A DNA stretch of 64,000 nt. Source: Candidatus Omnitrophota bacterium (GTDB lineage: Bacteria; Omnitrophota; Gorgyraeia; Zapsychrales; Zapsychraceae). Position numbers and translations under genes: made by a program. Within the stretch, counting starts at the first letter, position 1; each line of letters begins with the position of its first letter. The DNA lies in NCBI GenBank assembly GCA_015233115.1, contig JADFYJ010000001.1, positions 195,084 to 259,083 on the forward strand. The letters run 5' to 3'. Below are positions 433-38,664 of this stretch, one piece after another. The notes beneath the pieces were generated by a model that saw only the letters and a program-made list of their open reading frames with translations, was not told the DNA's origin and ran no database searches.

Positions 433-1299
433 ATGGACATTCCAGAAGGCATTTATAAAACTCATGGTGAGCTGTTTGATGCGGCTCACCATCTTGATCA
501 ATATTCCCACCAAGTGCTGGAAAAATTCAATCAAAAAACGATTGTGTTGTTCGATTTACGTCCTTGCCAGCGTATTTTCCTTTTTATCCTGACCCGCTCG
601 CTTAAAACTTATACGTCGATATTATACTTGTGCGAAAAGGGTTATGGTCAAGACGCGTCACCTTTATTAAGATCTTTGCTCGAAAATTTAATAACCGCCC
701 AATATATTTTACATAATCCTGCCATTTCCAATGACTTGGCAAAACGATTTGTGGCTTACAAGTGGGTCATATTAAAACGTCAGTTATCGGACCAAGAACA
801 GCATACTGAACGAACCAAAATAATTTTAGAAAAAGCTGAAGAATTCAAAAAAACATTTAAAGTGAAATCTGATCGTGCGCTCCTTACTTGGTCTGGAAAA
901 ACTGTCCGGGATATGGCAAAACAAATTGATAAAAAATGGCTTTATGAATATGAAACAATTTTTCGGTTGTGTTCCCGATTTTCTCATCCCAGTATTCTAG
1001 GCGATAATGAATACATGATTTTAGATGAAAAAAAATTGGTTTTCTCTTCATTGCCATCTGATATTGGGATAGTTCCTAATCTTCCTAATGCCGCGAAATA
1101 TTGTTTAGAATTTTTAATGATTATTAATGATTTATTTAAATTCAATTGTGAGAAAGATATCACTGCACATTCTCAAGAATTAGAGAAAATTCTTCACCTT
1201 CCTAAATATCATAACGGTTTTGCAGATACCCAACCTGCCGATTTAAAAGGTCCGTCGATCCGTGACTGCATTGTTACTTTCCAAACTCAAATAAACTAA
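433..1299 (+). CDS. Hypothetical protein, 288 aa, no recognisable domain.
   Basis: Long ORF with coding-like composition. The SD AAGGAG sits only 1-2 nt before the ATG, so the true start is uncertain. No motif recognised. Confidence 0.45.
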   Translation: MDIPEGIYKTHGELFDAAHHLDQYSHQVLEKFNQKTIVLFDLRPCQRIFLFILTRSLKTYTSILYLCEKGYGQDASPLLRSLLENLITAQYILHNPAISNDLAKRFVAYKWVILKRQLSDQEQHTERTKIILEKAEEFKKTFKVKSDRALLTWSGKTVRDMAKQIDKKWLYEYETIFRLCSRFSHPSILGDNEYMILDEKKLVFSSLPSDIGIVPNLPNAAKYCLEFLMIINDLFKFNCEKDITAHSQELEKILHLPKYHNGFADTQPADLKGPSIRDCIVTFQTQIN

Positions 1300-1707
1300 G
1301 TTGATCCTTTGTAAGACCATTGTCCCTCCGTAGAACAAAGTCAATATAAAGTGGAAAACGCCTATATTCAAAAAACTCTTTTTTTTCTATGATGGGAACA
1401 GTTCCGGTTTTGTCTGGGGGGGCAAACAACATCTACGCGGAGTTTTTTGATGTTTAAAATGTTTTTATTGCTCCCCAAAAACACATCAGCGCTCGACGGA
1501 AAATTTTTTCCGTTGATTGCTGTTTTTTTTTGCCGCGCACAAACATATATTTTAGAAATATTATTGTCAAAAGGAGGACATATAGAGCTCATGACTCAAA
1601 TAAAACATAAATTTGTTATGTTGTAAAAATGGGTTGATGCTGGTGAATATACCACCCCAGCGCCCTAATTCTAAAAATCAAATTAAATGGATAAAATGAG
1701 GTGCTAT

Positions 1708-4434
1708 ATGAGTAAAAAATTAACTTTTGTGTTTTCACTAGCAATTTTATTTGCTATGTACATTTCCGCCTTGCCGACGCCGGTTATGGCCGGAGGTGTT
1801 CCTTTATCTGATGGACAAATGGATCAAATTGCAGCAGGTGAATGGGTTTTGGCCTCTGCCGCTACTACCAAAAATTCATTAAAAGTTAAAGATCAGTCAC
1901 AAAATACGATTAAAGGTATCAGTAACGCAAACAGTGTGGATAGTGCTGTTAATGGACAGACCAACGTCAGTAATGCTGTCGAAGGAGCTGTAGATATTAC
2001 ACAAAGCAATAATACTTCGGTGACTAATCGTGCAAAGCCAAAAGATACTTTTAGTCTTGATGCCTCCCACAAAACAGTTACCGCCGTTAATGAGAAGGGC
2101 ACGACTACCTATAATAATGTGACCACTTCAAAAATCGATAATTCTAGTGCTGAAACTAAATCAGTTTCTGATACGGAATCGTTAAATACTTCTTCTACAG
2201 ATAAGGCGAGTTCTTCACTGAATGAAACTTCAAATAAAGCGGACAGCCTTAAGACTGGTTTTTCTGATGTTGAAGTCAGTGGTTCTTCAGCAAGCACTAA
2301 TTCTGCAAGTGCCAGCAATTTTTCAAAAGATAAAAGCGCAAGTTCAGCAGAAAATTTTGATTTAGATAAAGGTAAATCTGCTTCTAGCGAAGCTTCCCAA
2401 AGTGCTAATGATGCATCGAAAAATACCGCTAGTGCGAATAACAGCGCTTCGTCTTCTGATAAATTTAATTTAGACGGAAGTTTGAACGCAGGCACAACTA
2501 GCGCATCACAAAGTGCTTCGAAAAGTGCTGACAGTGTAGCAGCAATTTCCAGCAAATCTTCAAGTGATTCTGCTGCAGCCAATGAAAATGCCTCAACTTC
2601 GGATAAAGCAAATTTGGATGGTAGTTTAAGCGCCAGCGAAGGAAATGCTTCACAGAGTGCTGCTCAAAGTGCGAAAAGTCAATCAGCCAATTCCAGCAAC
2701 TCAGCTAGCAATAGTGCTGCAGCCAATGAAAATGCTTCATCTATGGATAAAGCTAATTTGGACGGCAGTTTGAGCGCTGGATCTGCAACGGCATCGCAGA
2801 GTGCTTCAAATAAATCAGACAGTGTAGCTGCTAATGCCAGCAAATCGTCTAGCGATACTGCTGCTGCAAACAACAATGCGACATCATCGGACAAAGCTAA
2901 TGTAGATGGAAGTTTGTCAGCATCGAAGTCAGCAGCCTCACAAAGCGCAGCGCAAAATGCGGATTCATCGGCATCGAACAATAGCGCAGCTGATTCATCT
3001 TCGAGCACAAAAGATGCCAGTCTGAACGTAGCAGCTACAGGAACAAGCAATAAAACTGCCTCATCTTCATCTGATGCTGTTTCCCAGGATGGTGTGAGCA
3101 CGTCTCAAAAGGATGCTAGCGCCAATCAATCCGCTGCACCTGGTTCAGTCACATCAGGGTCAACATCTTCAACAGCAGCCACAACTGGCAATGATGAAAA
3201 TTCGGGTACTGTTACTCAGAATTCTGCCACAGACACAGCCAATTCATCAAAAACGGTTGGTGTTAATGCCTCAGGCACACTTGACACGACTAAGCAATCA
3301 GGGTCGCAATCAGCTGATTCTGCAGCCGCAGATAGTTCTGCTTCAAATTCATCAGCAGCATCTAAAAATAGCAATCTTGATGCTTCATTAAGTGCAAGTA
3401 AAGACAAAGAAGCTTCTAGCGGAGCAGCATCATCATCCGCAAGTCAGGATGCAGCAAATGCTTCATTGACAAAAGATAAAACAGCGTCAGATTCAGCTTC
3501 AGCATCGGATAATAAGAATCTTGATGCTTCATTAAGTACAAGCAAAGATAAAGAAGCAACCAGCCAATCAGCTTCATCTTCAGCTGATCAATCTGCAGCT
3601 AATGCGGCATCGGCTAAAGATGCATCTGCTTCAAATTCAGCATCAGCATCTGAGAGTAAAAACCTAAATGCGACTTTAACCACGAGCAAAGATAAGGAAG
3701 CATCTAGCGCATCAGCATCATCTTCAGCTGATCAATCAGCAGCTAATGCCTCTTTAACTAAAGATAAATCTGCTTCAGATTCCGCGTCAGCTTCTGATTC
3801 GAAAAATTTGAATGCAGCGTTAACTGTTGGAAAAGATAAAGAAGCTGCTAACGCTTCAGCTTCTGCATCTGATCAAGAAGCATCTTCTGCAAGTCAATCG
3901 GCAGACAAAAGTGCTTCTCAAGATAGCTTATCTGTTACCAAAGGCAAAAGTGCAAACTCAGCTTTATCCGTAAAAGATACGAAGAGCGATAATTCTGCTT
4001 CTGCATCACAGGATAGCGCTTCAAAAAATGTTCAAGCAACGGTAGATGCTTCAAAAACTGATAATAAAGCGAAAACTGAAACATCAAGTTCAGAAAATGA
4101 CGCTTCTTTAGCAGCCTCGAAAACAACAACCAAAGCTGAAAATGAAACAAATACAAAAGTCAAAACTGATACTGTCGATCAAGGTGTGATCGTTGATTCA
4201 GCAAAAAATAATACGAATACTGAAGATGATTCAGTACAAATTGATGAGACTAAGACTGGTTCAGTGACCAATGAATTAGTTGTCTCAGGCGGTTCGCAGT
4301 CAGACATTATGGCAGTCAGCAACTTGAACGCAGTTGGTTCAGCTGTAGCCATACAAGCTAACGTTGCTAATTCCAGCACTGTATCTGGAAATATTTCACA
4401 ATCCAACGTGGCTACCGTAGCAAATGGTATTTAG
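1708..4434 (+). CDS. Exported Ser/Ala/Asp/Lys-rich repeat protein (putative fibre or surface-layer subunit). Its termini are paralogous to those of the 4517..5392 protein.
   Basis: ATG at 1708 preceded by GAGGTG; the ORF track start at 1687 is in frame. N-terminal hydrophobic signal-like segment, then LSDGQMDQIAAG. Interior made of two families of imperfect tandem repeats of about 48 and 40 aa. C-terminal N/V/S/Q-rich segment (AVSNLNAVGSAVAIQANVANSS...) aligns with the C-terminus of the next protein. Confidence 0.7.
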   Translation: MSKKLTFVFSLAILFAMYISALPTPVMAGGVPLSDGQMDQIAAGEWVLASAATTKNSLKVKDQSQNTIKGISNANSVDSAVNGQTNVSNAVEGAVDITQSNNTSVTNRAKPKDTFSLDASHKTVTAVNEKGTTTYNNVTTSKIDNSSAETKSVSDTESLNTSSTDKASSSLNETSNKADSLKTGFSDVEVSGSSASTNSASASNFSKDKSASSAENFDLDKGKSASSEASQSANDASKNTASANNSASSSDKFNLDGSLNAGTTSASQSASKSADSVAAISSKSSSDSAAANENASTSDKANLDGSLSASEGNASQSAAQSAKSQSANSSNSASNSAAANENASSMDKANLDGSLSAGSATASQSASNKSDSVAANASKSSSDTAAANNNATSSDKANVDGSLSASKSAASQSAAQNADSSASNNSAADSSSSTKDASLNVAATGTSNKTASSSSDAVSQDGVSTSQKDASANQSAAPGSVTSGSTSSTAATTGNDENSGTVTQNSATDTANSSKTVGVNASGTLDTTKQSGSQSADSAAADSSASNSSAASKNSNLDASLSASKDKEASSGAASSSASQDAANASLTKDKTASDSASASDNKNLDASLSTSKDKEATSQSASSSADQSAANAASAKDASASNSASASESKNLNATLTTSKDKEASSASASSSADQSAANASLTKDKSASDSASASDSKNLNAALTVGKDKEAANASASASDQEASSASQSADKSASQDSLSVTKGKSANSALSVKDTKSDNSASASQDSASKNVQATVDASKTDNKAKTETSSSENDASLAASKTTTKAENETNTKVKTDTVDQGVIVDSAKNNTNTEDDSVQIDETKTGSVTNELVVSGGSQSDIMAVSNLNAVGSAVAIQANVANSSTVSGNISQSNVATVANGI

Positions 4435-4450
4435 TTTTTTATGAGCTAAC

Positions 4451-4481
4451 GCAAAGGGGAAGTATTTTACTTCCCCTTTGC
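4451..4481 (+). terminator. Perfect 14-bp-stem hairpin (GCAAAGGGGAAGTA-TTT-TACTTCCCCTTTGC) between the two repeat-protein genes. Possible attenuator or partial terminator.
   Basis: Inverted repeat read directly. A T-run precedes it; only a weak A/T tract follows it on the + strand. Confidence 0.35.
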
Positions 4482-4516
4482 CGCGCTAAAAAATTTAGAA
4501 GAAAGGAGGTAATGGT

Positions 4517-5392
4517 ATGTATCAAAAAAAAATTTCACCATTGGTTATTTTATGTTTAATTTTAGGGCAAAATTCTTTAGCATTTGCCAATTATGCGGTT
4601 GAGATTTCTGATTATGAACTTGATCAAGTTCATGCCGGAGGATTAAATCTTAACTTTGACAATTTTTTAGGTTCTATGAATACCGCGGCTGATACAGCTA
4701 GCAAAAGTTCTGTAGTTGATATCAACACAACGGCTAAGAATTCGTTAGTGACAAATTCAAACAATTCCGGAGTAACTATTTTAGCGCCGACTCAGCCTAA
4801 TTCTCCTACAGCGCCAACGGCGCCAACGGCTCCAACGGCTCCAGCTGCTCTAGTAGCGCCAACAGTTCCGACTTTGCCGACAGCGCCGGTTTTACCCATA
4901 ACTCCAACTAATCCAGCTTCTCCATTAGTTCCGACAGCTCCAATGCCGGTAGATCTAAGTCTTGCTTCAAATCCAAGCCTGGTGAGTGGATCGATAGCCG
5001 CACCTGAAGCACCATCGACTCCTGCGGTACCAGCCTTACCAGTATCGCCAGCTTCACCTGCAACACCAACGGCTCCTGCCACATCTGCCGCTGTTGCTAA
5101 TACACCTATGACATTTGATGTGGTGGCAAAAACAGGTAACAATTTTCAAGTGGCGTACTCAACAAATAGTAATGTTCAGCCAACTGCCTTTTCATCAACC
5201 GGGGGTATGAACTCAGTGAATGTTTCCGATACGGCGCAACAAAACTTAAGCGCTATGGTTAATGTTAACGCGGCAGGAAGTATTGTTCCTGTTCAAATTA
5301 ATTTAACTGTTCTCATGAATTCAACTGTGCAAAATCTTACCAATTCGAATGATTTGAAATTGAGTAATTACACGACGTTCTCCCTTCAGTAA
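4517..5392 (+). CDS. Exported Pro/Thr/Ala-rich repeat protein, a paralogue of the 1708..4434 protein (second subunit).
   Basis: AGGAGG RBS. Signal peptide with AFA cleavage-like site, then ISDYELDQVHAGG. PTAPTAPTAP low-complexity core. C-terminal N/V-rich segment (AMVNVNAAGSIVPVQINLT...) similar to the upstream protein. Confidence 0.7.
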   Translation: MYQKKISPLVILCLILGQNSLAFANYAVEISDYELDQVHAGGLNLNFDNFLGSMNTAADTASKSSVVDINTTAKNSLVTNSNNSGVTILAPTQPNSPTAPTAPTAPTAPAALVAPTVPTLPTAPVLPITPTNPASPLVPTAPMPVDLSLASNPSLVSGSIAAPEAPSTPAVPALPVSPASPATPTAPATSAAVANTPMTFDVVAKTGNNFQVAYSTNSNVQPTAFSSTGGMNSVNVSDTAQQNLSAMVNVNAAGSIVPVQINLTVLMNSTVQNLTNSNDLKLSNYTTFSLQ

Positions 5393-5429
5393 CGAACCTG
5401 TGGGGAAGGCAATATGATTTTTTATAGTT

Positions 5430-6119
5430 ATGAATAAAAAAGTTCTAACCACAATTTTGTTTTGTTTTCTTTCTTTAGTGTTCGCTAATTATTGTTTTGC
5501 GTCAGTTTTTTTCGTTGGAGGGATGCGATTTAATAAAAAGTTAATGCCGTTACGTGAAATTAAAAGAGAACACGTGGTTATGCAGAATTTTGATTTTAGC
5601 TGTGGAGCTGCGGGCTTGTCGACATTATTGAACTATTACCTTGGCAACCCAATCTCTGAAAGTGTCATTATTAAAACTCTTTTAAAGACTGTTCCGTTAC
5701 AAAAAATACGTCAACGGCGCGGGTTTTCCCTCTATGATTTAAAAAATTTCGCAAAATCAAAAGGATACATCGCGACAGGCTATAAAATGGATATTGATTT
5801 TTTAAAAAAACTTCATAAACCGGTTTTAGTTCCGATTAAATTTAGGAATTTCCGCCATTTTGTTATTATCAAAGCTGTAGTAGCTGATCATGTTCTTATA
5901 GCAGATCCAGCTGCCGGAAATACTTCAATGACGATAGATCAATTTAATAAACTTTGGATAGACGGCATATCTTTGCTCGTAGAAGATCCGCGAAAAAAAT
6001 CTAGTGGTTTTCAGACGAATTTCGACGGAAAAGATTTGTTAATAACAGATCACAAAATGATTGGACGGATTCTAAATCCTGACCTGATTCGCACAACAGT
6101 TTATCCGGGAGAATTTTAA
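5430..6119 (+). CDS. Standalone peptidase C39-like domain protein (papain-fold cysteine peptidase of the double-glycine-leader processing family) with an N-terminal signal/TM segment.
   Basis: The Cys motif FDFSCGAAGLSTLLNYY and the downstream HFVIIKAV...DPAAG (His/Asp) resemble C39 catalytic motifs. There are no ABC transporter domains. It is 229 aa. Confidence 0.6.
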   Translation: MNKKVLTTILFCFLSLVFANYCFASVFFVGGMRFNKKLMPLREIKREHVVMQNFDFSCGAAGLSTLLNYYLGNPISESVIIKTLLKTVPLQKIRQRRGFSLYDLKNFAKSKGYIATGYKMDIDFLKKLHKPVLVPIKFRNFRHFVIIKAVVADHVLIADPAAGNTSMTIDQFNKLWIDGISLLVEDPRKKSSGFQTNFDGKDLLITDHKMIGRILNPDLIRTTVYPGEF

Positions 6120-6274
6120 ACTTATTGTAAGGAGGTCCCGCTACGGCCGCTAGGACGCGGCCTTGCTTGAACAGCAAGCTTCGCGTTGCTCAGCTTCGCG
6201 GGATAAATTCGTGCGGCTGACTTGATGTCGCGATAAATCGCTCCATAAGTCAGGCACTCATTATAGGAGACAAC
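6120..6274 (+). other. GC-rich, highly self-complementary intergenic island. Candidate structured 5' leader or small RNA.
   Basis: Nested inverted repeats: CCCGC...GCGGG, GCTTG-AACAG-CAAGC, CTGACTT...AAGTCAG and GCGAT-AA-ATCGC. Local GC is far above the window average. Confidence 0.3.
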
Positions 6275-7564
6275 ATGGTTAAGCTTAAACTCAACGTTGG
6301 GAATACAGTTTTAATTATTTTATGCCTGTTTTTTGTTCTGGGAGAAGCAAAAATTACTAACCGGTTGGCTGAGAATAAGTACCAAAAACTGGCTCAAACT
6401 TTAAAAGCTGACATTTTGCGGGAATTGAAAAATAATATTAAAAATGAGGTATGGCAGGAAATACTACATAATCACAAAAAAAATTTTATCCAAGAAAAGG
6501 CAAATCTAGCGGATAGTGATATTTTTACTCTTAATCAGGGGAATTTGAACGATGAAGATTTAGATCAATATTTTGCCGGTAATGAAACGCCGAAGGCTTT
6601 AGGAATTAATTCTGGATATACAAAATTAGCGTTACAAAAATCAGCAGACGAACCTTCTTCGTCAACTCTTCAGACCGGAACAGGTGAAATTTCCGGCGGA
6701 AATAAACGTGAGTTACCCGCTTCACTTCAAAAAACTTTTGAAGAACGCGGCAGCATGTTACTTCCCAAAGGAAAATTTCAATTAGAACCAAATTTTACTT
6801 ACGCTCATTTTTCGTCCAACCGTATTAACATTCAAGGCTTCAGTATCCTTCCGGTACTTGTGATAGGAGATATCTCTGTCCAAGAAGTGAAACGGGATGT
6901 GTTTATTAATACATATTCTTTACGATATGGACTTTTAAATAATTTACAGGCTGAAATTAAGGTTCCAGGACGGTTTGAACATGATTTAATCAGCACTTCC
7001 ACAACGAGTGAGACGACCCGTAATCATGGAGGACTAGGTGATGTGGAATTAGGACTTAGCCGTCAAATTGGTTGGGAGCACGGAGTTTGGCCTGATTTGA
7101 TTGCCGCCTTTGCTGTAAAAACACCTTCAGGATTAGAACCATATAATCATTCGATTGCTCTCGGTACAGGGCATTGGGCAGCTCGTGGATCGTTGATCGC
7201 GGCAAAATCCAGTGACCCAGCCGTGGTTTTTGGATGCCTCAGTTACACATATAATTTTGCCAGAAACGGGATTGAAAATTACGGTGATGTTAAGCCCGGA
7301 GATACTATTGCGTACAGTTTAGGAACAGCTGTGGCATTAAGTTACAAAGTCGCGCTTAATTTAGCTTTTGACCAAAGCTTAACTACTAAGATGAATAGAA
7401 ATGGGTCACCGGTGGTTGATTCATTCATGAACTCCGCAGACTTAAAAGCTGGATTAAATTGGGTTATTGATGATAAAAAAGCCGTGGATTTTTCCGTCAG
7501 TATGGGTTTAACCAAAGATTCGCCGGATTTTACAGTTGAAATAAGAATACCAATATCATTCTAA
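6275..7564 (+). CDS. Putative outer-membrane beta-barrel protein with an N-terminal coiled-coil-like periplasmic region.
   Basis: Signal-like N-terminus. K/E/L-rich heptad-like stretch at residues 30-90. C-terminal alternating amphipathic segments ending in ...IRIPISF, a terminal aromatic residue typical of OM barrels. It is 429 aa. Confidence 0.5.
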   Translation: MVKLKLNVGNTVLIILCLFFVLGEAKITNRLAENKYQKLAQTLKADILRELKNNIKNEVWQEILHNHKKNFIQEKANLADSDIFTLNQGNLNDEDLDQYFAGNETPKALGINSGYTKLALQKSADEPSSSTLQTGTGEISGGNKRELPASLQKTFEERGSMLLPKGKFQLEPNFTYAHFSSNRINIQGFSILPVLVIGDISVQEVKRDVFINTYSLRYGLLNNLQAEIKVPGRFEHDLISTSTTSETTRNHGGLGDVELGLSRQIGWEHGVWPDLIAAFAVKTPSGLEPYNHSIALGTGHWAARGSLIAAKSSDPAVVFGCLSYTYNFARNGIENYGDVKPGDTIAYSLGTAVALSYKVALNLAFDQSLTTKMNRNGSPVVDSFMNSADLKAGLNWVIDDKKAVDFSVSMGLTKDSPDFTVEIRIPISF

Positions 7565-7603
7565 GCTTATTGATTTTTTGTATCTTAGTGTTAGGATACA
7601 AAA

Positions 7604-38468: not shown

Positions 38469-38664
38469 TCCTATATCTTTAGGGCCCCGAAGGATATATT
38501 TTAAGCCGAATTTCTGACCTTCAAGGAAGCGGGAGATACCAGCAGGGGGGTGAATCTCATGTAACATGAGAGGGATAGCTGCCATCCTAACCCATCAACT
38601 AATCTCGCAGGCTAGGCAGTATTTTTTTATTAGTTCAAGCTTTAAATATTTTTTGTGGGGGATA

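What the first reader, a model, noticed from the sequence alone, without database searches (positions are those of the whole stretch)
1804..4642. Double-glycine-leader-like motif located after a Sec-type signal peptide in both repeat proteins
Both proteins have a signal peptide. The first has an alternative in-frame Met that would give MAGGVPLSDGQMDQIAAG. After the signal peptide each carries LSDGQMDQIAAG (1804-1839) or ISDYELDQVHAGG (4601-4642). These match the LSxxELxxIxGG consensus recognised by C39 peptidase domains, and a standalone C39 peptidase is encoded two genes downstream. GG leaders are normally at the extreme N-terminus of Sec-independent substrates. A GG-like site behind a Sec signal suggests periplasmic processing by the free C39 peptidase, a maturation step before outer-membrane export. 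That arrangement is unusual.
Basis: partly seen in the sequence, partly recalled or inferred. Interest (0 to 1): 0.7.

Follow-up and report, generated by a model that had tools for sequence, protein, structure and literature searches.

The report
Double-glycine-type leader behind a Sec signal
Two secreted repeat proteins, and the outer-membrane channel encoded beside them, carry a bacteriocin-style "double-glycine" leader just after an ordinary export signal; the same arrangement recurs next to a free periplasmic C39 protease in many bacterial phyla, which points to a second, periplasmic cut before export through a FapF-like pore.

Summary
LSDGQMDQIAAG (1804-1839) and ISDYELDQVHAG(G) (4604-4642, not 4601) lie 4-5 residues after plausible signal-peptidase sites. 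A third copy, LNDEDLDQYFAG (6545-6580), lies in the periplasmic part of the outer-membrane protein. About 0.002 matches are expected by chance in the six-frame translation.

The locus has four genes: two substrates, a Sec-exported standalone C39 peptidase with intact Gln/Cys/His/Asp, and a FapF-like barrel. There is no ABC transporter.

In 80 loci found through the peptidase, 74 have the barrel next to it. At least 64 have upstream ORFs with a signal peptide followed by L-[ST]-D-x-[QE]-[LM]-D-x-[VI]-T-A-[GA]. These loci span Omnitrophota, Acidobacteriota, Nitrospirota, Desulfobacterota and Alpha-, Beta- and Gammaproteobacteria.

Homologues of protein 2 found only through its C-terminal domain carry the motif in 39 of 40 cases. 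One peptidase clade carries the motif inside its own tail. Fap-like loci have a G-[KR]-ending variant, including in FapE.

Cleavage itself and the exact scissile bond are untested. I found no Pfam or NCBIfam family for the substrates and no paper describing this. It is a new variant of the Fap/Fil-type secretion systems.

The parts
1708..4434 (+). Protein 1: a 908-aa Ser/Ala/Asn/Asp-rich repeat protein and predicted substrate. The ORF opens at 1687, but ATG 1708 has the ribosome-binding site.
   Evidence: ORF list. GAGGTG lies upstream of 1708. Two arrays of 144-nt repeats at 2458-2916 and 3330-3860. No Pfam or NCBIfam hit.
1708..1791 (+). Sec-type signal peptide of protein 1 (MSKKLTFVFSLAILFAMYISALPTPVMA), with a predicted signal-peptidase site after VMA.
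   Evidence: Read directly from the sequence: Lys-Lys n-region, hydrophobic core, small residues at -3/-1. Homologues keep the hydrophobic region. Not checked with SignalP.
1804..1839 (+). Leader-like motif of protein 1, LSDGQMDQIAAG. It begins 4 residues after the predicted signal-peptidase site and is followed by EW.
   Evidence: The close homologues L001, L003 and L004 have L[ST]DxE[LM][DE]x[IV][AS]AG[ED]W.
4451..4480 (+). GC-rich hairpin (GCAAAGGGGAAGT-ATTTT-ACTTCCCCTTTG) between the protein 1 stop codon and the protein 2 ribosome-binding site. No T-run follows it.
   Evidence: Read from the sequence. The terminator scan did not call it. Function not tested.
4517..5392 (+). Protein 2: 291 aa with a Pro-rich middle and a conserved C-terminal domain (AQQNLSxxVNVNAAGSxVPVQINL). 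Predicted substrate or accessory subunit.
   Evidence: There are 100 homologues among 1.84 billion representative proteins. No Pfam or NCBIfam family.
4517..4588 (+). Sec-type signal peptide of protein 2 (MYQKKISPLVILCLILGQNSLAFA).
   Evidence: Read directly from the sequence. Conserved in homologues.
4604..4642 (+). Leader-like motif of protein 2, ISDYELDQVHAG+G. It begins 5 residues after the predicted signal-peptidase site and is followed by LNLNF.
   Evidence: The motif columns are the only invariant or near-invariant N-terminal columns in the protein-2 family alignment. Present in 39 of 40 homologues found through the C-terminal domain alone.
5430..6119 (+). Standalone C39 cysteine peptidase of 229 aa with its own signal peptide (MNKKVLTTILFCFLSLVFANYCFA), so it is periplasmic. 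Catalytic codons: Gln52 5583-5585, Cys58 5601-5603, His143 5856-5858, Asp159 5904-5906.
   Evidence: Pfam PF03412, E 1e-21. NCBIfam FilB 2e-36 and FapD 5e-33, both far below the curated cut-offs. The four catalytic residues are invariant in 21 homologues. AlphaFold core pLDDT above 90, with top fold matches ComA, PCAT1 and LahT150.
6275..7564 (+). FapF-like outer-membrane beta-barrel of 429 aa with a signal peptide and an N-terminal coiled-coil-like region.
   Evidence: NCBIfam FapF 1e-40 and FilC 2e-18. PDB FapF 5o65, E 1e-25. A homologue sits next to the C39 gene in 74 of 80 loci, nearly always directly downstream.
6545..6580 (+). Third copy of the motif, LNDEDLDQYFAG, at residues 91-102 of the outer-membrane protein, between the coiled-coil region and the barrel.
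   Evidence: The same position carries the motif in the barrel proteins of the related loci L001, L002, L003, L004 and L006. It is absent from the Acidobacteria and Gammaproteobacteria barrels examined (L007, L012, L045).

Best explanation
The four genes form a two-step secretion module related to the Fap and Fil systems.

Proteins 1 and 2, the C39 peptidase and the barrel protein each cross the inner membrane by Sec. Signal peptidase then exposes a short propeptide of about 16-18 residues at the new N-terminus of proteins 1 and 2. This propeptide is a double-glycine-type leader: an amphipathic segment with Leu at -12, Leu/Met at -7, Val/Ile at -4 and Ala-Gly at -2/-1.

The free periplasmic C39 peptidase recognises this leader as PCAT peptidase domains recognise bacteriocin leaders. 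It removes the leader at or next to the Ala-Gly(-Gly). The matured, unfolded subunit then passes through the FapF-like barrel to the cell surface.

In this clade the barrel protein has the same motif in its periplasmic linker. The peptidase is therefore also expected to dock on, or cut, the transporter.

What is shown: the gene set, the motif, its conservation and its linkage to the peptidase, and the intact catalytic residues. What is inferred: signal-peptidase cleavage, C39 cleavage, its exact position, its coupling to export, and the nature of the exported fibre.
For: - The motif is present three times in the cluster against 0.002 expected.
- The C39 protein has a signal peptide and no transporter domain. 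Gln/Cys/His/Asp are invariant. Its fold matches leader-cleaving C39 domains, including LahT150 solved with its leader.
- The barrel is homologous to FapF.
- No ABC transporter is nearby: the flanking genes are DUF5677, OYE, MATE, enolase-like, DUF819, NlpC/P60 and TetR.
- Of the 80 loci, 74 have the barrel next to the peptidase.
- Signal peptide plus motif is concentrated in the 3 kb upstream of the peptidase: 73 of 84 hits, against 14 scattered on the opposite strand.
- 119 motif proteins occur in 64 loci. Information content peaks sharply at -12, -10, -7, -6, -4, -3, -2 and -1 and falls away on both sides.
- In an independent test through the C-terminal domain of protein 2, 39 of 40 homologues carry the motif.
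- Natural fusions exist: a clade of roughly 300-aa peptidases has [AS]SDxELDx[LV]TA[AG]G after the catalytic domain. One such locus has five upstream substrates with the motif and a FapF-like barrel.
- The end of the leader co-varies with the peptidase clade. FapD-like peptidases go with G-[KR] endings and the others with A-G or A-A-G.
- In Pseudomonas, FapD acts in the periplasm, its catalytic Cys is required for secretion, and FapE lacks its N-terminal ~70 residues (PMC5557850; supplementary Dataset 6).
Against: - There is no experimental evidence of cleavage for any of these proteins.
- The conserved pair is Ala-Gly, not Gly-Gly.
- In protein-2-type homologues residue 12 can be Glu, Gln, Lys or His, while Gly13 is invariant. 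Either P1 or P2 would then be a large residue, which is atypical for C39 domains. About a third of leaders end A-A-G, so the register is uncertain by one residue.
- Signal peptides were judged by eye.
- AlphaFold gave no confident placement of the peptidase tail (pLDDT below 50), and the model of the fused paralogue was poor (pLDDT 43.6).
- The motif counts are inflated by many related Acidobacteria, and the information profile was computed on sequences chosen with a pattern.
Confidence: 0.7

Rival explanations
1. The motif is a binding or targeting tag that is not cleaved. It recruits substrates to the peptidase, which would act as a chaperone in the way the inactive C39-like domain of HlyB does, or to the periplasmic domain of the barrel. 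The true proteolytic target would then be only the barrel's linker, or the peptidase itself.
For: In protein-2-type proteins the residue before the invariant Gly is often Glu, Gln, Lys or His, which is poor for a double-glycine peptidase. The barrel and some peptidases carry the motif internally. Rouse et al. proposed FapF as a FapD target (PMC5557850).
Against: The catalytic Gln/Cys/His/Asp are invariant across the family. In HlyB-type chaperone domains the catalytic Cys is lost (established knowledge; PMC5557850 draws the same contrast). The small Ala-Gly pair is the most conserved part of the motif, at 4.0 and 3.2 bits, which is what a scissile site predicts. FapD Cys38Ala abolishes secretion in Pseudomonas (PMC5557850).
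Confidence: 0.17
2. The proteins are classical Sec-independent double-glycine precursors. Translation would start at the internal Met (MAGGVPLSDGQMDQIAAG), and export would use a peptidase-containing ABC transporter encoded elsewhere.
For: An in-frame ATG at 1786-1788 would place the leader at the extreme N-terminus of protein 1.
Against: Homologues have no Met at that position but keep the upstream hydrophobic region. Protein 2 has no such Met. ATG 1708 has the ribosome-binding site. The neighbouring peptidase has a signal peptide and no ABC domain, and no ABC transporter lies in the flanks. A FapF-like barrel lies next to the peptidase in 74 of 80 loci.
Confidence: 0.02
3. The motif is a chance or compositional match in low-complexity proteins and has no function.
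For: Both proteins are repetitive and rich in Ser, Ala, Asp and Asn.
Against: Expected 0.002 matches, observed 3, and none in 200 shuffles. The motif lies outside the repeats. It is conserved across phyla at a fixed position after the signal peptide while the flanks vary.
Confidence: 0.01
4. The motif is cut by, or serves, a different periplasmic factor, and its adjacency to the C39 gene reflects only shared operon membership. One candidate type is a LapG-like protease, since LapG is known (from my own knowledge) to cut at T-A-A-G in LapA.
For: The commonest endings, V-T-A-A-G and V-T-A-G-G, resemble the LapG di-alanine site.
Against: No LapG/BTLCP gene is in the cluster: Pfam hits of the cluster and flank genes are listed. 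The upstream part of the motif (L-S-D-x-E-L-D-x-V) matches the C39 leader consensus, not the LapA retention module. The motif is fused to C39 peptidases in one clade. The leader end co-varies with the C39 clade.
Confidence: 0.05

Closest known systems
Pseudomonas Fap functional-amyloid system (fapABCDEF)
   Same: Both have a Sec-exported periplasmic C39 peptidase (FapD) encoded with a FapF barrel that has an N-terminal coiled coil. In both, substrates reach the periplasm by Sec and leave unfolded through the barrel. FapD's catalytic Cys is needed for secretion (PMC5557850). The window's barrel matches FapF 5o65 at E 1e-25.
   Different: The peptidase and barrel score far below the FapD and FapF equivalog cut-offs: 114 against 330 bits and 140 against 700 bits. 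No FapA, FapB/C repeats or FapE are found. The gene order is substrates, then peptidase, then barrel. The Fap literature says Fap proteins lack canonical C39 sequences and that FapD's target is unclear (PMC5557850; still 'thought to' in PMC12822426, 2025). Here the substrates have a near-canonical leader. FapE, and in Methylotenera FapB too, show only a degenerate form ending R-G-[KR].
Acinetobacter Fil putative pilus system (FilB peptidase, FilC outer-membrane protein)
   Same: FilB is the best NCBIfam hit of the peptidase (2e-36), and FilC also hits the barrel (2e-18).
   Different: Both scores are far below the curated cut-offs (126 against 475 and 67 against 630). I could not obtain FilA or FilD-F sequences, so I do not know whether Fil subunits carry the motif. 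I found no mechanistic literature on Fil.
Peptidase-containing ABC transporters and their double-glycine leaders (ComA, PCAT1, LahT, CvaB)
   Same: The peptidase fold and catalytic residues match. The leader consensus LSxxELxxIxGG (PMC1538908) aligns in register with L-[ST]-D-x-[QE]-[LM]-D-x-[VI]-T-A-G.
   Different: In those systems the peptidase is a cytoplasmic domain of an ABC exporter, and the leader is the extreme N-terminus of a Sec-independent peptide. Here the peptidase is free and periplasmic, the leader follows a Sec signal peptide (or is internal in the barrel and in some peptidases), the cargo is up to 900 aa, and export is through an outer-membrane barrel.
LapG/LapA periplasmic proteolysis (own knowledge, not tested here)
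   Same: A periplasmic cysteine protease cuts a surface protein near its N-terminus at a small-residue site (T-A-A-G).
   Different: LapG belongs to a different protease family (BTLCP, not C39). LapA is a type I secretion substrate, and cleavage releases the adhesin rather than maturing it for export.

Membership tests
Double-glycine leader / C39 processing (PCAT type) | C39 papain-like peptidase with catalytic Cys and His (plus Gln and Asp) | tested here: met
   PF03412, E 1e-21. Gln52, Cys58, His143 and Asp159 are invariant. Fold matches to ComA, PCAT1 and LahT150 at E about 1e-9.
Double-glycine leader / C39 processing (PCAT type) | Leader with hydrophobic residues at -12, -7 and -4 and Gly-Gly (or Gly-Ala/Ser) at -2/-1 | tested here: inconclusive
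   The hydrophobic positions and the acidic/polar pattern are met. The -2/-1 pair is Ala-Gly, or Ala-Ala followed by Gly. In protein-2-type proteins residue 12 is variable.
Double-glycine leader / C39 processing (PCAT type) | Leader at the extreme N-terminus of a Sec-independent precursor | tested here: not met
   A signal-peptide-like region precedes the motif in the window and in 119 homologous cases.
Double-glycine leader / C39 processing (PCAT type) | Peptidase fused to, or partnered with, an ABC exporter | tested here: not met
   The protein is 229 aa with a signal peptide. No ABC transporter is among the neighbours.
Double-glycine leader / C39 processing (PCAT type) | Demonstrated cleavage after the small-residue pair | not testable with these tools
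   Needs proteomics or an in vitro assay.
Fap functional-amyloid system | FapD equivalog | tested here: not met
   NF058616 scores 114.2 bits against a cut-off of 330.
Fap functional-amyloid system | FapF equivalog | tested here: not met
   NF058560 scores 139.5 bits against a cut-off of 700. It is homologous, not equivalent.
Fap functional-amyloid system | FapB/FapC amyloid repeat subunits, FapA and FapE | tested here: not met
   Proteins 1 and 2 have no relevant NCBIfam or Pfam hit. The profile comparison of the protein-2 family with FapE aligns only the 16-residue leader segment, with probability 7.7%.
Acinetobacter Fil system | FilB and FilC family membership | tested here: not met
   NF050078 scores 125.8 against 475, and NF050079 scores 66.9 against 630.
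Acinetobacter Fil system | FilA/FilD-F subunits | not tested
LapG/LapA | BTLCP-family calcium-dependent protease and a type I secreted adhesin with a retention module | tested here: not met
   The protease is C39. No BTLCP or type I secretion genes are in the cluster or its flanks.

The most novel reading that the evidence does not exclude
The motif is the cleavable periplasmic export signal of a large, multi-phylum, so far unnamed two-step secretion pathway: Sec, then a free C39 peptidase, then a FapF-type barrel. The Pseudomonas Fap and Acinetobacter Fil systems would be specialised offshoots of it. The peptidase would read the same signal on substrates, on the transporter's own linker and, in one clade, on itself. 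That would couple leader removal to channel gating. It would also define the long-sought recognition site of FapD-type peptidases, with the R-G-[KR] segment of FapE as its Fap version.
Probability: 0.45. Interest if true: 0.85.

Novelty: new variant of a known kind. Interest (0 to 1): 0.7.

Why it matters
Periplasmic C39 peptidases of the FapD type are known to be essential for amyloid secretion. Their substrate and recognition sequence have stayed open since 2017; a 2025 review still says FapD is 'thought to' process FapE and FapF.

This locus and its relatives supply a concrete, conserved candidate site that can be tested with a peptide and a purified enzyme. The data also show that FapD/FapF-like gene pairs outside Proteobacteria come with their own unannotated substrate families, which can now be found by the rule 'signal peptide plus leader'.

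Double-glycine leaders are textbook markers of Sec-independent export. A version that works after Sec, on cargo of 70 to 900 residues, would widen that concept. It would also give a simple rule for predicting surface-fibre proteins in uncultured phyla such as Omnitrophota and Acidobacteriota.

Tried and rejected
- Pfam and NCBIfam scans of proteins 1 and 2 and of ten motif-bearing proteins from other loci found no family except FapE in a true Fap locus.
- A homologue search starting from a Methylotenera FapE stayed within Methylophilaceae-like sequences and did not reach Pseudomonas, so I could not inspect the Pseudomonas FapE sequence itself.
- The FapE peptide table of Rouse et al. starts at residue 72. 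This is compatible with N-terminal processing but does not locate the site.
- The profile comparison of the protein-2 family with FapE aligned only the leader segment, at low probability. I therefore treat the FapE link as a lead, supported by the intermediate S-G-K leaders of L060.
- AlphaFold of the fused long peptidase was too poor to use (pLDDT 43.6). In the window peptidase the C-terminal tail has pLDDT below 50, so I dropped the idea that the tail docks as a pseudo-substrate for lack of support.
- None of ten further peptidases reached the FilB or FapD cut-offs, so I could not find a true Fil locus to inspect.
- Literature searches on Fil, and on periplasmic C39 peptidases with double-glycine motifs, found no description of this arrangement. 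The library holds only open-access papers and preprints, so absence is not proof.
- Exact look-up of proteins 1 and 2 in the protein collection failed; only the barrel protein is there, named 'hypothetical protein'.
- The promoter and terminator scan gave nothing above the shuffled background.

Full report
**What is in the window.** The region 1600-7600 holds four co-directional genes.
- Protein 1 (ORF 1687-4434; likely start ATG 1708, which has GAGGTG upstream) is a 908-aa Ser/Ala/Asn/Asp-rich protein. It has two arrays of 48-residue repeats.
- Protein 2 (4517-5392) is 291 aa, with a Pro-rich middle and a conserved C-terminal segment.
- The third gene (5430-6119) is a 229-aa C39 peptidase (PF03412, E 1e-21).
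- The fourth (6275-7564) is a 429-aa outer-membrane barrel.
- The window matches a Candidatus Omnitrophica metagenome-assembled genome; the peptidase is 100% identical to an NCBI entry.
- The flanking genes are unrelated: DUF5677, an OYE flavoprotein, a MATE pump, an enolase-superfamily enzyme, DUF819, NlpC/P60 and TetR. None is an ABC transporter.

**Checking the observation.** Nt 1804-1839 encode LSDGQMDQIAAG.

Each motif lies 4-5 residues after a plausible signal-peptidase site: ...PTPVMA|GGVP|LSD... and ...SLAFA|NYAVE|ISD... I judged the signal peptides by eye from the charged n-region, the hydrophobic core and small residues at -3/-1. No predictor was available.

A 12-position pattern built from the family consensus is expected 0.002 times in the six-frame translation of the window and occurred in none of 200 shuffles. 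It occurs three times, all inside this cluster. The third copy, LNDEDLDQYFAG (6545-6580), lies in the barrel protein between its N-terminal coiled-coil-like region and the barrel.

**The peptidase and the barrel.** The peptidase has its own signal peptide and no transporter domain.
- Its best family matches are FilB of Acinetobacter (2e-36) and FapD of Pseudomonas (5e-33). Both are far below the curated cut-offs, so it belongs to neither.
- Gln52, Cys58, His143 and Asp159 are invariant in an alignment of 21 homologues of 30-57% identity.
- An AlphaFold model has pLDDT above 90 over residues 40-190. Its best structural matches are the leader-cleaving peptidase domains of ComA (5xe8), PCAT1, and LahT150 bound to its leader (6mpz). 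Sequence search of the PDB agrees.
- The barrel matches FapF (NCBIfam 1e-40; PDB 5o65 at E 1e-25).

**Is the motif conserved? Test through the peptidase.** A scan of one genome per species with the peptidase alignment returned 80 loci.
- In 74 of them a FapF-like gene lies next to the peptidase gene, nearly always directly downstream. Most exceptions are at contig ends.
- ORFs combining a signal-peptide-like region with the motif number 84 on the peptidase strand. Of these, 73 lie within 3 kb upstream of the peptidase gene (42 in the last kilobase) and one lies downstream. The opposite strand has 14, spread evenly.
- With a relaxed pattern and manual removal of obvious false hits, 119 such proteins (69-908 aa) occur in 64 loci, usually two per locus.
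- Five of the remaining loci have almost no upstream sequence. L034 has a one-residue-longer form (I-Y-A-[TQK]-G).
- Record titles place the loci in Omnitrophota, a Planctomycetales-labelled bin, Acidobacteriota, Nitrospirota, Desulfobacterota and Alpha-, Beta- and Gammaproteobacteria.
- The consensus is L(-12) [ST](-11) D(-10) x [QE](-8) [LM](-7) D(-6) x [VI](-4) T(-3) A(-2) [GA](-1). It starts 23-36 residues from the initiator Met.
- Information content rises from about 1 bit in the signal peptide to 3-4 bits at -12, -7, -6, -4, -2 and -1, then drops below 1 bit two residues later.
- Two caveats apply. Many loci are related Acidobacteria, and the sequences were picked with a pattern. However, -3 and -8 were unconstrained and are still strongly biased.

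**Test through the substrate.** A full HMMER search of protein 2 against 1.84 billion representative proteins gave 100 hits.
- Fifty-one hits match only the C-terminal domain (query residue 150 onward), so they were found independently of the leader.
- Eleven of these are N-terminally truncated.
- Of the 40 with an N-terminus, 39 have the motif after a signal peptide, and the last has a degenerate copy.
- In the alignment of the protein-2 family (16-49% identity), the invariant or near-invariant N-terminal columns are exactly the motif columns.

**Further links between motif and peptidase.**
1. A clade of roughly 300-320-aa peptidases carries [AS]SDxELDx[LV]TA[AG]G about 20 residues after the catalytic domain, followed by a conserved extension of about 90 residues. 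The locus of one of them has five upstream genes with signal peptide plus motif, and a FapF-like barrel downstream. This natural fusion places the motif in a periplasmic protein with no adjacent signal peptide.
2. In the window's own clade (window, L001-L004, L006) the barrel protein has the motif in its periplasmic linker.
3. Loci whose peptidases cluster with FapD-like sequences have leaders ending G-[KR] instead of A-G. Examples are LTDEALDAVSGK in L060, VSDSDLGHMRGK in a Methylotenera FapE confirmed by NF058559, and IPDxELxxMRG[KR] in other FapE proteins. The clustering is a rough UPGMA and L048 is an exception, so this co-variation is only suggestive.

**Mechanism.** The motif aligns in register with the documented double-glycine leader consensus LSxxELxxIxGG (PMC1538908).

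In PCAT-type systems such leaders sit at the extreme N-terminus of Sec-independent peptides. They are removed by a cytoplasmic C39 domain of the ABC exporter (as summarised in PMC5557850).

Here the most economical reading has four steps:
1. Sec export and signal-peptidase cleavage expose the leader.
2. The free periplasmic C39 enzyme recognises it.
3. The enzyme removes it.
4. The subunit leaves through the FapF-like barrel.

The motif in the barrel's linker suggests the enzyme also docks on, or cuts, the transporter. Rouse et al. proposed this for FapF on other grounds.

All steps after gene content and conservation are inference. The exact bond is unresolved:
- In the canonical register it follows motif residue 12 (A-G| or A-A|G).
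- In protein-2-type proteins residue 12 may be Gly, Glu, Gln, Lys, His or Ser, while Gly13 is invariant. That favours cleavage after Gly13, or recognition without cleavage, for that subfamily.

**Comparison with what is known.** The Fap system is the closest studied relative.
- FapD is periplasmic and its catalytic Cys is needed for FapC secretion.
- A December 2025 review still says FapD 'is thought to process' FapE and FapF (PMC12822426).
- Dueholm et al. noted that FapD and FapF belong to larger families, and found Fap systems only in Proteobacteria (PMC3792158).

The window's system lacks FapA, FapB/C repeats and FapE, and fails the FapD, FapF, FilB and FilC equivalog cut-offs. I therefore do not file it as Fap or Fil. 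It works like them, but with near-canonical leaders on its substrates.

The substrates have no Pfam or NCBIfam family. I found no paper describing a double-glycine-type leader behind a Sec signal, within the limits of an open-access library.

**Verdict.** I rate it a new variant of a known kind. Its interest is 0.7, because it turns the open question of what FapD-type peptidases recognise into a direct peptide-cleavage experiment.

Noticed in passing
window 6545-6580: The FapF-like barrel protein itself carries the leader-like motif (LNDEDLDQYFAG, residues 91-102) between its coiled-coil-like region and the barrel. The barrel proteins of L001, L002, L003, L004 and L006 have it at the same place. 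The Acidobacteria and Gammaproteobacteria barrels I examined (L007, L012, L045) do not.
   Followed up: partly
P0099-P0118; L081 7001-7939: A clade of roughly 300-320-aa periplasmic C39 peptidases has [AS]SDxELDx[LV]TA[AG]G after the catalytic domain, followed by a conserved extension of about 90 residues (…PPLALWRLQSF…QLGxPxGNFTDFS). L081 has five upstream motif-bearing genes and a FapF-like barrel.
   Followed up: partly
window 5985-6119 (peptidase C-terminal tail): The short peptidases share a tail with a weak leader-like pattern (L-x-V-x-x-x-D-L-x-V-x-D-Y-K; in the window FDGKDLLITDHK). Nearly all end in R-T-x-x-x-x-x-x-E-[FYW]. AlphaFold gives the tail pLDDT below 50, and its role is unknown.
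   Followed up: partly
L060, L076, L059, L074, L048, L068: Fap-like loci carry a G-[KR]-ending version of the leader after the signal peptide. It is found in FapE and, in Methylotenera (L076), also in FapB (IDSNVLSHVRGR) and in a 137-aa upstream ORF (MTDIDLSVISGK).
   Followed up: partly
window 4451-4480: A perfect 12-bp GC-rich hairpin with no T-run sits between the protein 1 stop codon and the protein 2 ribosome-binding site. It may set the ratio of protein 1 to the downstream genes.
   Followed up: no
L001 4225-6933 (N-terminus): The protein-1 homologue has a tandem duplication of the leader end: LTDAELDEIAAG-DEEIAAG-EWVLAS.
   Followed up: no
window 433-1299 and L004 94-750: A DUF5677 protein is encoded just upstream of the cluster, and a homologue sits upstream of the equivalent cluster in another Omnitrophota contig. 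I did not examine whether it belongs to the system.
   Followed up: no
window 2458-2916 and 3330-3860: Protein 1 has two arrays of 144-nt (48-residue) Ser/Ala/Asp/Asn/Lys-rich repeats. Its N- and C-terminal ends share a Q/N-rich pattern (SNxNxVxSAVxxQxNV) that resembles the C-terminal domain of protein 2.
   Followed up: no
window 38494-38628 (+): A c-di-AMP riboswitch (RF00379, 69 bits, E 6e-14). No tRNA genes were found anywhere in the window.
   Followed up: no
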